Shown here piece by piece: positions 30,001-36,000 of a DNA stretch of 64,000 nt. The number at the start of each line of letters is the position of its first letter. Position 1 is the first letter of the stretch. Position numbers: made by a program. The stretch comes from Bdellovibrionales bacterium (GTDB lineage Bacteria; Bdellovibrionota; Bdellovibrionia; Bdellovibrionales; JAUICD01). The DNA lies in assembly GCA_965262715.1 (NCBI GenBank), contig OZ253553.1, positions 1,472,001-1,536,000 on the forward strand. The letters run 5' to 3'.

Positions 30001-33000
30001 TTCTAGACCTTTCGGTTTTGCTTTACACACGGTCTCTTGACATTTTTTAACTAGCACATCCAAACGTGATATCAAGAATGGACGTATATACTCCCAATTA
30101 GGGACTGTATCGTTCGAATTGGATTCTCCGCATTCATAGTGCTGTTTCAACATAGCTTGCACAGCAATCAAAGAGACCAATCCATCATCGTCTTCAACTG
30201 TTTTCTCACAATGTTTATATTCCGGTTTTCCATCAGTCTCACCAGCGCATATATGAGTAAACACTAAATTGATCTTATCGCCTCTTTTTTTCTCTATACC
30301 AATTAAACCAAAAGTTGGATTCCATTGCGGCTGAGGTTGAGTTAGAGCTGATTGGCTAATCATTGTAGTCAAAATAAAAAATAATATTTGTGATAACTTC
30401 ATTTTTTAACGTACTCCTCTAACCCGTCTTCTCCAAAAACTTCTTCTATTGTTGCTATTATAGTTTGTGATTAATTGATGCAGATGCGCTGAAACTTCAG
30501 TAGAATTGTTTGATACAGGGCAGTTAAACTTATCCTCCACAGTCAATGACCTATTACTTCCTGAGTCAGTAAATTTTAAACTATCCTCTCTAAATCTTTT
30601 GTGGTGCTTAGCAATCAAATTATCACTATAATTTTCATTTGATGAAATTGTATCGGATAGTATGTGTTCTCTTGCATCATAATCCTTCCCTTGATCAAAA
30701 TCAGTTTTAACCTTGTATTTATAATAAGGTTCGTGTTTTGAAAGAAAATCTCCTAATTTATTCAGATCACTATAGATTGGATTATCAGAAGAAAGAAGTG
30801 TTTGCATGCCTTCATAATCAGTAACCAGGCCTCCACAAAACTCCATTTTATTTTTGCTATTGTCACTTCCACTCTGACTATTTATCTGAGTGTGAAATTC
30901 ACTATCCCGACGGCATCTATCTTCGTTTCTTCTCCTATAGTCTTCATTACTACAATAAGCTATACGCTCAGATGATGTATCACATAAGGCTTCATGACAT
31001 CTCTTTAATAGCAATTCTAGACGGGACTCAATAAAAGGTTTTATATTTTCCCAGTGAGGGATTGTATCATTAGAATTACTACTGGAACATACATAATGCT
31101 GTTTTAAAACAGACTGCACAGCTACTAAGGAGGCAAGTCCATCTTTATCTTCAACCTCTTTTTTACAGCTTGTTGCTTGTCCACGTCTATTTTGACATTC
31201 AAATTCAAAGATTAACTTTGTATTATCACCTTTTTTCTCAATTTGAACCAATCCCGGCTCTGGATTCCAATTTGTACCTTGACTCCAAACTACTGGACTG
31301 ATGATTATAAAAGACATAATTAAAGATAGTGATAATTTCATTTTTGAGCTCTCTTAGACTCACTAGCTGATTTTCTACTTGCAGATTTTATAGAGATGGC
31401 ATCGCTTGGAATACCTATTTGTATTCTACGGCCTATTTTTTTATTAAGCCTTTCCTTAAGCTCAGCACTCAACTCTGATGCACGAATTAAAGTAAGCTCT
31501 GGCTCTTTATCGACTTTCACTGTATAGATGCCTTTTTTGTAAGATACAATCATTCCACGAACATAAACATTCATATCAGCAAAGCATTTCTGCGCTATGA
31601 AGAATATACATAAAAATGCCAATATTTTATAGGTCATACTACATCACTTAATAGTTTATAAAACTTCAATATCCTTTATCGAGAAGTATTAAATAAAACT
31701 TTAGGATTTTCTTCAAATTTCAAATAATAAGTAAGAAATTTCAGGCTTATAAACTGGTGTGTAACTTCTTGTTTAAACCTTCTCAATAAATAGAGGGTCA
31801 GTTACTACTTCGTCATAACTACTTTATATTTACATTTTCAAATCCTAGAGCTAATGAAAAACTTGTACTTTATCCATTGTAACAGGAATAGCCCTCACTT
31901 CTTTGACTTTGAGGGTTTGGCTTAAGGTATTAAGTTTTTCTTAATATTATTAACTGACCTTAGGCAAAAACTCTTCAATAAAGAGAACTTGATTTAAGTT
32001 TCAAGTATTTTTACACAATTTATATAGAAAGGCCCCTATTTTATCAGCTTCTTTTATTAACTTTTGATGGTTAACAAGAGTTAGTATTGCTTGTACTTCC
32101 CTCAGAGAACCTAAACTAATCTCATAGAACTTCTTACGTTCCTTATGACTAGACTTAGCAGATCCTTCAGCTAGATTGAGTACAATGCTAAGCGTAGCTC
32201 TTTGAAACTGATTCTTCATAGGCCCTCTTAAACTTAAGCTGTTAGATTTATGATAGAATTGAATTGCTAATTGATAAGTTTTAAATTTTTTCATAATTTT
32301 TTTCTCCTTTACCCTTTGGTGGGAGAAAAAAATTAAGGAAAAGTTCAAAACAAACAGATTGCCAGTTTCCCGGGATTCCCGGTTTCCCGGACTACAGAGA
32401 TAGCAATTAAGCAAGGTTTAACTTAGGTAAATCAGTAAACAACAACAAACCTCTTAAAATTACAAAAGTTGCATAAGATGAGTTATCACCTCCCCCTCCC
32501 TTTTTTTTATAAGTAGAATCAAAACAATAACCCTATGATATATGGCTTGCTATCATGCTAATGAGCTTGATGATCATTACTGTTAAAGATAGCTTTGAAC
32601 TCATCTAAAGCAAGTTCTAACTTCTTTTTCAAATCATCTGTTAATTGTTTTTTGGATTTGATCCCTGGTAAAACATCCGAATGCTTCTGCTTTAAAAAAT
32701 CTAATAATTCTATCTCGTATTTTTGAACCTCATCATTGCGAATATCATCCATATATCCATTTATCCCTGCAAAAATCACAGCTACCTGTTCTTCCACATG
32801 CCACGGGGCATATTGAGCCTGCTTGAGCATCTCCACTAGCTTTTCACCACGGTTCAGCTGTGCCTGAGTGGTCTTGTCCAAGTCAGATCCAAAAGCAGCA
32901 AATGCCTCAAGCTCCCTAAACTGAGCAAGGTCAAGCTTGAGAGTTCCTGCTACCTGCTTCATAGCCTTGATCTGTGCATTTCCACCCACACGAGAAACTG

Positions 33001-36000
33001 AAATACCCACATTCACAGCAGGACGAATACCTTTATAAAACAAATTGGATTCTAAGAAGATCTGTCCATCCGTAATAGAAATCACATTCGTAGGAATATA
33101 GGCTGAGACATCATCCGCTTGAGTCTCTATAATAGGCAGTGCTGTAAGAGATCCACCTCCATCCTTATCACTCATCTTGGCTGCGCGCTCTAAAAGCCGA
33201 GAGTGCAAATAAAAAACATCACCAGGATAAGCTTCACGCCCAGGAGGACGCCTTAATAACAAAGACACTTGTCTATATGCCTGAGCCTGCTTGGTGAGAT
33301 CATCATAAATGATCAAAGCATGCATGCCATTATCCCTAAACCACTCTCCAATAGCACACCCTGAATACGCAGATAAAAACTGCATCGGAGCAGAAATAGA
33401 GGCACTTGCAGAAACTACAACTGTATACTCTAATGCACCTGATGCTTTCAACTTCTCTACCACTTGCGCTACAGTTGATTGCTTTTGTCCTATTGCCACA
33501 TAAACACAAAAAACATCCTGACCCTTCTGATTGATAATTGTGTCAATAGCTACTGCTGTCTTGCCTGTCTGTCGGTCACCAATAATTAACTCCCTCTGAC
33601 CTCGACCAATAGGGATCATCGCATCAATAGCCTTAATACCTGTCTGAAGAGGCTCGTTAACAGGCTGCCTTTTAACAATACCTGGAGCTTTAAGCTCTAC
33701 TAAACGAAACTCAGAAGATGAAATAGCACCTAAACCATCTAAAGGATTTCCAAGCGGATCAACCACTCGACCACAAAGAGATTTTCCAACAGGCACTTGA
33801 ACAATTCTTTGAGTTCTTTTAACAGTGTCACCCTCTTTGATATGATAATCATCACCAAAAATCACAACCCCTACACAGCTGCTCTCTAAATTCAAGGCCA
33901 TGCCATAAATATCGCCCGGAAACTCAACGATCTCTCCAGCCATAACATTATCTAATCCATAAACAGTGGCCACACCATCTCCCACAGATAAAACACTACC
34001 TGTTTCAGTCACCTCTAACTTCGCACTGTATTTTTGGATCTGCTCTTTTAAAATATTTGTCATTTCGTCAGCTTGAATTTTCACAAAATATCTCCCTTTT
34101 TTGTTTCACTAAAATGCATCTGATTTTTCGAGGTCAACCTTTAGCACATTCTTAATTTTACACCTTACACCTTCTTTAAATGTTCTTTTAGCATTACTAA
34201 TTGATTTGCAATTGTTCCATCAAATAACAATCCATCTAATTTTATCAAGATACCTCCTAAAAGAGATGGACGTTTAAAATATTTAAAATCAACTTGTTTT
34301 TTTAACCTGTCAACCATAGCTTTTTCAACCTGAACCCTCTCCTCTGTGCTCAAGTCATAGTAAGAGAAAACCTGACCTCTTATAAGATTTTTCTGCCTAT
34401 CATGTCTATCCCTAAAAGCAGTTATAATTTCTAAAATATTGTCTATTCGATTTTTATGAAGTAAAAATTTTAAAAAATCCACGGAAATAGCTGATACCAA
34501 ACCCTGTTGCACCCCAAAAACATCGTCAATAAGTCTTCTTTTTTGCTCTATAGTCAGTAAAGGCCCAGAAAGTAAAGTAAACATTTTACTTTTTTGATAC
34601 CTATCAGATACCCCATCCGTTTCTTGCTCCATCGAAGACTCTGTTAAAACTTGTAAAAACATTTTAAAATCTTTTAAAACAATGTCTACTTGATCCTTGC
34701 TGGCCACAAGTTCGTAAAAAGCCTTTGCATATCTTTGAGAAACTTCTGTCAACCACATCACTTTAGAGATACCTCAAACTTTCTGATCAAAGCCTTTTTA
34801 TCTTCATCTGTTACGCTCCTTGATATCTCACTTTGAATCCTATCTATGATTTTCTCTACAAACCCTGCTTGTATAAGCCTCTTTGTCCTCTTGTGCTCTA
34901 AGTCTAAAAGAGTTTGAGCCGACTGCTGAATCCTTTCAGCCTCTAGGTGAGCTTCATCCAACATACGAGCTTTTGTTGCGCTAGCCTCCTGCCTTGCTTT
35001 TTTAATTTGATCTTCTGTCGTCAAATTAATCTGCTCAAGCTTTTGCTGGTAATCCTTATAAGATGATTCTATTTCCTCCCGCTCTCTTCTAGCTGCCTTA
35101 AATTGCTTTTGAAATAAATCAAATCTGCTCTGGTAAAAACTCTTTACCTTATCTTTCAACAAGTAAAATAAAAGACCCGCAAAAAGTAAAAAATTCAAAA
35201 CTTGGTAAAAAACAACCTTTGGTGGACCTCCATGATCTCCTTCCTCATGAGCAGTTTCCGCAGCCGCCAAAGCGGTACTTGCCAAATCATCGGATTGCCG
35301 GACTGCCTGACTGCCTGACTGCCCGATTGCCTGAAGAGAGGCATCTCCATATATAGAAACACCCAAAACAATCAGCACAAAAAAGATATGGCTAAAAGTT
35401 TGTAAAGATAAGATGCTTTTTAAATTTACCATAAACCCTACTCTATCTATTTAATATTTTGTCAATAGCCATACTGGCCAATTGAGGAATGCCTTTTTCT
35501 AATTTTTCTTTAGTGTCTTGCTGTTCTAATTGCCTTTGTTTTCTTGTTTCAGTTATAGTGTTTTTCACTTGCCTTTTCGCTTCTAATAATTTTTCACTAC
35601 AATCTTCAGTCGCTTCACTTTTAACTTCAATAAAGATACCTTGAATTTGACCATGCAGTTTGCGAAGTTTAGATTCATATTCATCTTTTATTTTTTTTAT
35701 CTCTGCAAGTTTTTGCTCTTTATCCTCTTGATTTCCAAGTACGAGTGTTTCCCGATGTTTATAAAGCTCAAACAAAGGCTTGAATACAAGAAAGTGCATG
35801 ATTGAATACACAACTAAAAAAATGGCTATCTGGATAAATAATGTAGAATCAATACCTAACTTTGTAAATATTTCCATATCTTTATACTCTTTAGATTTTT
35901 TTATAAGATACTTGTAAACACTCATCTATACAAATAAAGTGTCTATATATAAAGGTCAATGATTAATGAGAAATAACAAGACGCACCCTTTATTACAACC

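What a model noticed while it worked through the whole genome (the two positions that open the first line are those of the whole stretch)
32001..35432. Transposase-free Avd-like gene element in 32 copies leaves octamer-repeat scars, some inside core genes
A 97-104-aa four-helix-bundle (Avd/23S-IVP family) gene is dispersed in 32 whole or partial copies, none in the rRNA operon and none beside a reverse transcriptase among the 15 whose neighbours were listed. It is typically preceded by a variable run of 8-nt units (consensus YHGGSARH). The same octamer runs occur alone at dozens of other sites and have entered the 5' coding region of core genes such as atpF' and ctaD. Gene and octamers behave as one mobile system that has expanded recently.
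Evidence so far: tblastn finds 32 loci, 10 of them full length. Two or more adjacent octamers occur at 80 loci against 5 in a shuffled genome. All 14 called copies tested have a sense octamer in the 250 nt upstream and 10 have two or more, against 2% of random windows. Across the family, gene and repeat co-occur exactly: Avd matches 19/14/19/0/0 and triple-octamer matches 35/7/9/0/0 in G000/G038/G029/G007/G019, with the reversed control 0; G019 and G029 are one genus. The 8 G038 copies examined form one near-identical clade (100/99) at 8 sites with different octamer runs. atpF' (g01274) has an octamer-derived insert of about 25 residues lacking in G038, G007 and G019.
(Added by a program. Inside this text positions count along the whole contig: contig position 1,472,001 is position 1 of the stretch shown here. 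"Call 12" and the like, gene names such as g00115 and contig names such as C1 are that model's own, and its searches are not shown. The text may have been shortened before it was handed on; [...] marks where a part breaks off. The agent that wrote the report below was given it as the finding of a first reader that could run no searches.)

Follow-up and report, generated by a model that had tools for sequence, protein, structure and literature searches.

The report
Self-spreading helix-bundle gene with repeat arms
A small gene for a four-helix-bundle protein, flanked by variable runs of 7-8-base repeats, has multiplied to 14-30 copies in three related bacteria; in one it spread with no mobility enzyme found and in another insertion-sequence ends picked it up, which offers a testable handle on what this protein family does and where bacterial 7-base repeats come from.

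Summary
Real, but simpler in one respect and wider in another than reported. The PF05635 gene (about 30 loci, 9 canonical intact ORFs), the octamer runs (82 vs 1 in the reversed genome) and in-frame runs in atpF (40 nt, not about 25 residues) and ctaD (48 nt) are confirmed. 'Transposase-free' fails here: the flagged copy lies in a 533-bp cassette with terminal inverted repeats, and four other cassettes have IS1595 ends with perfect 8-bp target duplications; an intact IS1595 transposase is in the genome. In relative G004, however, 19 copies lack such ends, no RT, Y1, rve or tyrosine recombinase was found, and 11 of 18 modules have an empty site in congener G003. Copies form genome-specific clades under purifying selection (pN/pS 0.07-0.22). 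They carry an RBS-hiding hairpin and, in G001/G004, same-direction repeat runs on both sides. Spacing is lineage-specific: 8 nt here, mostly 7 nt in G001. Best reading: a selfish gene-plus-repeat module that spreads through its repeats with host enzymes, later captured by IS ends. The mechanism is not shown. This scan has reported the heptamer-armed form at least 13 times on other DNA, and one case (Coxiella IVS) is in print.

The parts
31952..32484 (-). 533-bp cassette bounded by 15-16-bp imperfect inverted repeats (type 2, AACTSAYCTTAYGCA) carrying array + leader + gene
   Evidence: three sister cassettes have 3-bp flanking duplications (AAT/AAT, AAT/AAT, ATT/ATT); this one reads ATT/ATC
32469..32484 (-). 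upstream inverted repeat (type 2)
   Evidence: motif at 33 sites vs 2 in the reversed genome; exact pattern found only in G000 among 21 relatives, single hits in 2 of 400 phylum genomes
32358..32390 (-). sense octamer array upstream of the gene
32295..32335 (-). leader hairpin that pairs with and hides the Shine-Dalgarno sequence
   Evidence: -18.9 kcal/mol; similar hairpin in most of 30 intact copies
32001..32294 (-). 97-aa PF05635/TIGR02436 four-helix-bundle gene, net charge +12
31952..31967 (+). downstream inverted repeat (type 2)
34758..35432 (-).
35294..35333 (-). five octamers (40 nt, from codon 34) in frame in atpF, absent from the orthologues of G001-G004
47763..47810 (+). six octamers (48 nt, from codon 12) in frame in ctaD, part of a ~22-codon N-terminal insertion behind a good RBS
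   Evidence: a contig of another study spans it without gaps at ~96% identity (X6 record 31)
49641..49795 (+). copy of the ~150-nt structured repeat that elsewhere splits the four-helix gene

Best explanation
The unit is [polar run of 7/8-nt units] - [RBS-hiding hairpin] - [four-helix-bundle gene] - [second run in the same direction, sometimes closed by an antisense arm]. It is a small selfish element that amplifies within a lineage and needs its protein to do so (inferred from selection). It has no catalytic gene of its own. Most likely the basic, probably pentameric protein binds the repeats or their hairpin, and host recombination, repair or template switching within the runs copies the unit to new intergenic sites; runs left alone, or expanded by slippage, give lone arrays and occasional in-frame N-terminal inserts (all inferred). 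Shown: anatomy, empty/filled sites, amplification within lineages, purifying selection, leader/gene shuffling. Also shown, for G000 only: secondary capture between IS1595 ends, where the module replaces most of the transposase and moves with 8-bp target duplications, and between a second pair of inverted repeats (the flagged copy; its transposase was not found).
For: 11 of 18 G004 modules lie between genes that are adjacent in G003 (filled minus empty 420-805 nt); G003 has no gene copy and no triple unit in 1.6 Mb. G001 and G004 copies are each monophyletic (support 100), and pN/pS is 0.07 (G001, 9 ORFs), 0.21 (G004, 12) and 0.22 (G000, 9). Sense runs downstream: 9 of 9 G001 and 6 of 12 G004 copies vs 1.7% background; upstream 9 of 9 and 12 of 12; both sides show the same 7-mer-to-8-mer order in G001. 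Leader types C/D are interleaved on the G004 gene tree, and tandem or partial duplications occur (L018, L037, L038). G004 has no match for RVT_1, Y1_Tnp, rve or tyrosine recombinase, one IS1595 remnant, and one DDE_1 hit on a G000-like contig. IS1595 capture: 8/8 duplications at 320592-321134, 806127-818768, 922773-923754 and 2560605-2561250, and at the intact IS 2850675-2851573; the cassette ends match the IS left end at 74-80%.
Against: No step of the mechanism was observed, and no catalytic activity is known for the fold. G003/G004 intergenic DNA is too diverged to read junctions, and no target duplication is seen (3.5 vs 3.3 nt). G004 is a ~20-contig assembly with foreign contigs, only 676 kb of ~1.6 Mb was read in full, and repeated IS may be unassembled. 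G001 has three DDE_1 transposase hits and two tyrosine recombinases. In G000, downstream sense runs are absent (0 of 9). All these genomes, including gene-free G003, carry abundant structured repeats with unknown movers, so the module may ride on that machinery. 5 of 2508 random end pairs also give 8/8 matches, although those are not nested cassettes.
Confidence: 0.5

Rival explanations
1. Pure passenger: gene and repeats are cargo of IS-derived cassettes (MIC/MITE) and of the small structured repeats, and the protein plays no part in spreading.
For: IS1595-ended and type-2-ended cassettes in G000; 23 of 101 IS1595 ends are followed by a run, background 0.2%; G001 copies sit in clusters of the 150-nt repeat; G003 has hundreds of structured repeats without the gene.
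Against: No such ends are visible at G004 or G001 copies, and G001 has no IS1595 match; a passive passenger should not keep pN/pS at 0.07.
Confidence: 0.2
2. Host-useful RNA regulator: the protein binds the repeats in transcripts; runs arise by slippage and are kept as regulatory sites; copies spread passively by recombination.
For: Net charge +9 to +13; RBS-hiding leader; 14 of 18 G004 copies are co-oriented with the upstream gene and 9 of 18 start within 30 nt of its end; Avd binds an RNA stem-loop (bioRxiv 2023.10.23.563531, passages).
Against: Patchy presence (19 vs 0 in one genus), many broken copies, no conserved target genes; weak orientation bias in G000 (34:23).
Confidence: 0.13
3. 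Retro-mobility: as with DGR Avd, the protein partners a reverse transcriptase in trans, which copies the RNA and adds degenerate repeats by slippage.
For: G000 has three RT genes, two group II intron-like and one 590-aa RT; many copies lack the 5' end; runs often begin at gene or tRNA 3' ends in G004.
Against: No RVT_1 match in G001, G004 or G021 (14, 19, 18 copies), but one in gene-free G002; the 5'-less copies I inspected are splits by the 150-nt repeat or a microhomology deletion; nearest folds are Xcc0516 and BT_0352, not Avd.
Confidence: 0.1
4. mRNA-level intervening sequence: arms on both sides pair, RNase III cuts the gene out as in 23S rRNA, and this makes insertions harmless.
For: Same protein family, and the Coxiella IVS has variable heptamers (PMC4990558, passages); 33 of 96 G000 runs form hairpins, median z -3.2.
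Against: Antisense runs downstream in only 1 of 9, 3 of 9 and 4 of 12 intact copies; no copy in 23S; it does not explain spreading.
Confidence: 0.07

Closest known systems
ORF-bearing 23S rRNA intervening sequence (S23p; Coxiella, Leptospira; PMC4990558, passages read)
   Same: PF05635 protein, a variable number of tandem heptamers upstream of the ORF, poor translation, and an old proposal that the ORF served mobility.
   Different: Not in rRNA; 14-30 dispersed copies; 8-nt spacing in G000/G004; arms mostly direct rather than a terminal stem; ORFs under purifying selection, not decaying.
Mobile insertion cassettes / IS with passenger genes, IS1595 family (defined in PMC3129680, passages; Siguier 2009 seen only as a reference title)
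   Same: Four G000 cassettes have IS1595 ends, 8-bp duplications, no transposase inside and an intact cognate IS in the genome.
   Different: Applies to a minority of copies in one genome; the cargo is itself a repeat-armed module that spreads without these ends in G001/G004.
DGR Avd (bioRxiv 2023.10.23.563531, passages)
   Same: Related basic four-helix-bundle family; known to form a pentamer and bind an RNA stem-loop.
   Different: No RT, template region or variable region nearby; no RT found in three high-copy relatives.
Intergenic heptamer repeats, e.g. TAACTGA of Beggiatoaceae (PMC4679880, passages)
   Same: Dispersed short runs, mostly intergenic, entering proteins only near their ends.
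   Different: That paper has no mention of four-helix/S23 genes; here the runs track one gene family, and spacing flips between 7 and 8.
REP/REPIN hairpins moved by RAYT (recalled)
   Same: Lone ~100-nt hairpins, 33 of 96 runs in G000.
   Different: No PF01797 match in G001, G004 or G021; the one in G000 is an IS200-type gene.

Membership tests
PF05635 / TIGR02436 four-helix bundle | profile match and four-helix fold | tested here: met
   model pLDDT 95.5 with four helices; best folds 2gsc and 2rld, TMq 0.67-0.88, E about 1e-3 to 2e-2
PF05635 / TIGR02436 four-helix bundle | homopentamer binding nucleic acid | not testable with these tools
   the complex tool takes at most 4 copies; not run
23S rRNA IVS | located in a 23S rRNA gene | tested here: not met
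23S rRNA IVS | inverted terminal arms enclosing the ORF | tested here: not met
   antisense downstream runs in 8 of 30 intact copies; sense downstream runs in 15 of 30
23S rRNA IVS | RNase III excision from RNA | not testable with these tools
   no RNA holder listed
IS1595-derived MIC (four G000 cassettes) | ends shared with an intact IS1595 in the genome | tested here: met
IS1595-derived MIC (four G000 cassettes) | 8-bp target duplication | tested here: met
   4 cassettes 8/8; the family's 8-bp length is recalled and is also seen at the genome's own IS
MITE/MIC (flagged type-2 cassette) | terminal inverted repeats and short duplication | tested here: met
   inverted repeats at 4 of 4 paired cassettes; 3-bp duplication at 3 of 4, the flagged copy 2 of 3 bases
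MITE/MIC (flagged type-2 cassette) | cognate transposase with the same ends | tested here: inconclusive
   no paired ends enclose a transposase in G000; no multi-copy holder in 400 phylum genomes
Diversity-generating retroelement | RT linked to or co-occurring with Avd | tested here: not met
REP/REPIN-RAYT | Y1 (PF01797) transposase in carrier genomes | tested here: not met
   none in G001, G004, G021; G000's looks like IS200 tnpA by sequence and ends

The most novel reading that the evidence does not exclude
S23p/Avd-like proteins are the sole element-encoded factor of a new class of mobile element. The ring binds its own 7/8-nt repeats and steers a host polymerase or repair enzyme to extend them and paste the gene at gene ends. 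This would be the source of the unexplained heptamer repeats of many bacteria and the ancestral job of DGR Avd.
Probability: 0.25. Interest if true: 0.88.

Novelty: new variant of a known kind. Interest (0 to 1): 0.62.

Why it matters
PF05635 proteins are widespread, have solved structures and have no known function outside DGRs; dispersed heptamer repeats are likewise unexplained. This clade adds what single-locus cases lack: a same-genus pair with 19 vs 0 copies and 11 empty/filled sites, selection on young copies, a switch between 7- and 8-nt spacing, repeat runs fixed in ATP synthase and cytochrome oxidase genes, and capture by an IS. That makes the old proposal that the IVS ORF serves mobility directly testable.

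Tried and rejected
(1) 5'-truncated retrocopies: rejected; the junctions I inspected are insertions of the 150-nt repeat at codons 62-67 or a microhomology deletion. (2) The protein as mover of the structured repeats: not supported, since G003 has such repeats without the gene. (3) Transposase for the type-2 ends: not found; no IS630 match in G000-G003 or G005. (4) Trans factor from G004-specific genes: 151 ORFs without a G003 hit in the 676 kb read, none an obvious mover by eye; not run against Pfam. (5) Strain-level empty site: no joint skipping the cassette among the joints shown for 4 contig runs, 106 more not shown; no RNA holder listed. (6) Target duplication at G004 modules: none above background. 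(7) Rfam on window 45-52 kb: nothing significant. (8) Metagenome relatives: 54 of 80 loci examined with a crude periodicity test, mostly uninformative (inverted 19, direct 10, tie 25). (9) The orientation background for G000 was not obtained because the script failed. (10) Literature searches for a description of this module found none; supplements were not searched, and subscription papers and HMM comment fields are outside the library. (11) Sequence look-up in earlier scan notes gave nothing.
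Full report
Setting. The window is G000:1472001-1536000 of a 2.94-Mb, 33.6% GC single-contig genome. Earlier scan notes call it an uncultured Bdellovibrionota bacterium; I did not check this. The genome is repeat-rich: 413 kb is covered five times or more in a self-comparison, with many IS.

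Observation. The 97-aa ORF at 32001-32294 (-) is PF05635/TIGR02436. It models as four helices at pLDDT 95.5, and its nearest solved folds are Xcc0516 and BT_0352. There are 30 loci at E<=1e-3, 9 canonical intact ORFs and none in the 23S gene. Runs of two or more octamers occur 82 times vs once in the reversed genome; 12 of 19 loci with a 5' end have two or more octamers upstream vs 1.9% of random windows. Among 41 genomes, triple octamers occur in G000, G001, G004 and G026 (60, 38, 53, 5 matches) plus one GC-rich hit in G015. G021 and G025, with 18 and 11 gene matches, have none, so the repeat word is lineage-specific. G001 has 473 triple-heptamer matches and G000 none; unit spacing peaks at 8 in G000 and G004 and at 7 in G001. 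The octamer is the heptamer plus one purine.

In-gene runs. 6 of 96 arrays lie in ORFs of 150 aa or more. Two are verified against orthologues: atpF, five units (40 nt) after the first hydrophobic stretch, and ctaD, six units within a 22-codon N-terminal extension behind a good RBS, spanned without gaps by a 96%-identical contig of another study. Two are dimers that may be chance, one probably lies upstream of the true start, and one is in an ORF without an N-terminal orthologue. The G001 atpF gene has one unit-like word in this region, so growth from a seed by slippage is as possible as insertion.

The flagged copy is not end-less. It lies in a 533-bp cassette (31952-32484) with imperfect inverted repeats; three sisters carry 3-bp flanking duplications. 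No transposase for these ends was found. A second end type encloses an intact 230-aa IS1595-family transposase with an 8-bp duplication and also four gene cassettes, each with a perfect 8-bp duplication, one of them split into a 12.6-kb span. The downstream end of these cassettes is the first 110-140 nt of the IS at 74-80% identity, so the module has replaced the transposase. Against this, 5 of 2508 unrelated end pairs also match 8/8 in this AT-rich context. In all, 12 of 34 loci have an end upstream and 13 of 34 downstream, expected 1.7%. These copies are mobile insertion cassettes in the sense of PMC3129680 (passages).

The module also spreads without those ends. In G004 (18 modules examined in 17 loci, of 19 matches) no inverted ends are visible. 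G003, same genus, read over 1.6 Mb, has no gene copy and no triple unit. For 11 of 18 modules the flanking genes are adjacent in G003, with 420-805 nt missing; 2 are syntenic with other sequence between, 3 are rearranged and 2 lack a downstream match. Junctions cannot be read at base level, and no duplication is seen. 14 of 18 copies are co-oriented with the upstream gene and 9 of 18 start within 30 nt of its end. G004 has no RVT_1, Y1, rve or tyrosine-recombinase match, one IS1595 remnant, and one DDE_1 gene on a contig that resembles G000. It is a fragmented assembly and I read only 676 kb of it in full. G001 has no RT, Y1, IS1595 or rve match but has three DDE_1 hits and two tyrosine recombinases.

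Anatomy and evolution. Of 30 intact copies, most have a hairpin that pairs with the Shine-Dalgarno sequence. Runs lie upstream in 28 of 30. Downstream they are in the same direction in 9 of 9 G001, 6 of 12 G004 and 0 of 9 G000 copies, and antisense in 3, 4 and 1. This differs from the inverted arms that earlier scan notes describe elsewhere (not checked beyond a crude test). G001 and G004 copies are each monophyletic; pN/pS is 0.07, 0.21 and 0.22. Leader types are interleaved on the G004 tree, and tandem and partial duplications occur, which points to exchange within the runs. Of 96 G000 arrays, 14 adjoin the gene, 23 follow an IS-type end, and 33 close into about 100-nt hairpins (background 0.4%, median z -3.2). 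'Scar' is therefore one of several origins. A 150-nt structured repeat, already noted by this scan, splits the gene at codons 62-67 in G000 and G001, but G003 has its own structured repeats without the gene.

Mechanism. Shown: a gene-plus-repeat unit that multiplies within lineages, keeps its protein under selection, shuffles its parts, and in G000 has been captured by IS ends. Inferred: the protein is needed for spread, binds the repeats, and host enzymes act within the runs (0.5). Rivals: passenger (0.2), host regulator (0.13), RT in trans (0.1), mRNA-level IVS (0.07).

Comparison. The Coxiella IVS has variable tandem heptamers before its S23p ORF, and the paper cites the proposal that such ORFs served mobility (PMC4990558, passages). 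Avd is a basic pentamer that binds an RNA stem-loop (bioRxiv 2023.10.23.563531, passages). Intergenic heptamer runs are described without a link to this family (PMC4679880, passages). Searches for a dispersed repeat-armed four-helix element found nothing; supplements were not searched, and I recall no such paper but cannot exclude one. This scan has 13 notes on the heptamer form. It is not an IVS, DGR or REP/RAYT member by the tests above; four cassettes qualify as IS1595 MICs. Verdict: new variant of a known kind, interest 0.62.

Noticed in passing
L006 (G035), L009 (G031), L012 (G025); paired coordinates also in G021, G026: In other families of the order the gene comes as divergent head-to-head pairs sharing one palindromic leader with a Shine-Dalgarno on each strand; 6-, 7- or 8-nt repeats follow the stops.
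   Followed up: partly
L042-L045 (G004): Four gene copies carry an in-frame 22-residue insert after the AEGSAK motif; in the two read as DNA it is a 66-nt piece of a dispersed G004 repeat, like Rickettsia palindromic elements (recalled).
   Followed up: partly
window 32558-34084; L069-L072: The atp operon is broken after atpA in G000 and G001 (atpG at contig 120837, atpD at 1446180) but intact in G002-G004; G001 has a repeat cluster with a heptamer run between atpH and atpA.
   Followed up: partly
G003, L075-L154: A 1.6-Mb genome with 269 segments repeated five times or more, many of them structured repeats with up to about 115 hits, and no match for the six mover families and tyrosine recombinases tested.
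   Followed up: partly
G004 contigs C1, C4, C11 (L163, L166, L172): These contigs look foreign to G004: proteins mostly 70-94% identical to G000 and copies of G000's 150-nt repeat.
   Followed up: partly
L002 1282-3054 (-): 590-aa reverse transcriptase with a ~330-aa N-terminal part without a Pfam match, perhaps retron-like.
   Followed up: no
G000 contig 2716408-2716487: Ten identical octamers in a row, the only long homogeneous run in G000, which suggests plain slippage.
   Followed up: no
window 29419-31637 (-): Three ORFs without a Pfam match downstream of the cassette, two of them similar-looking secreted proteins of 311 and 327 aa.
   Followed up: no
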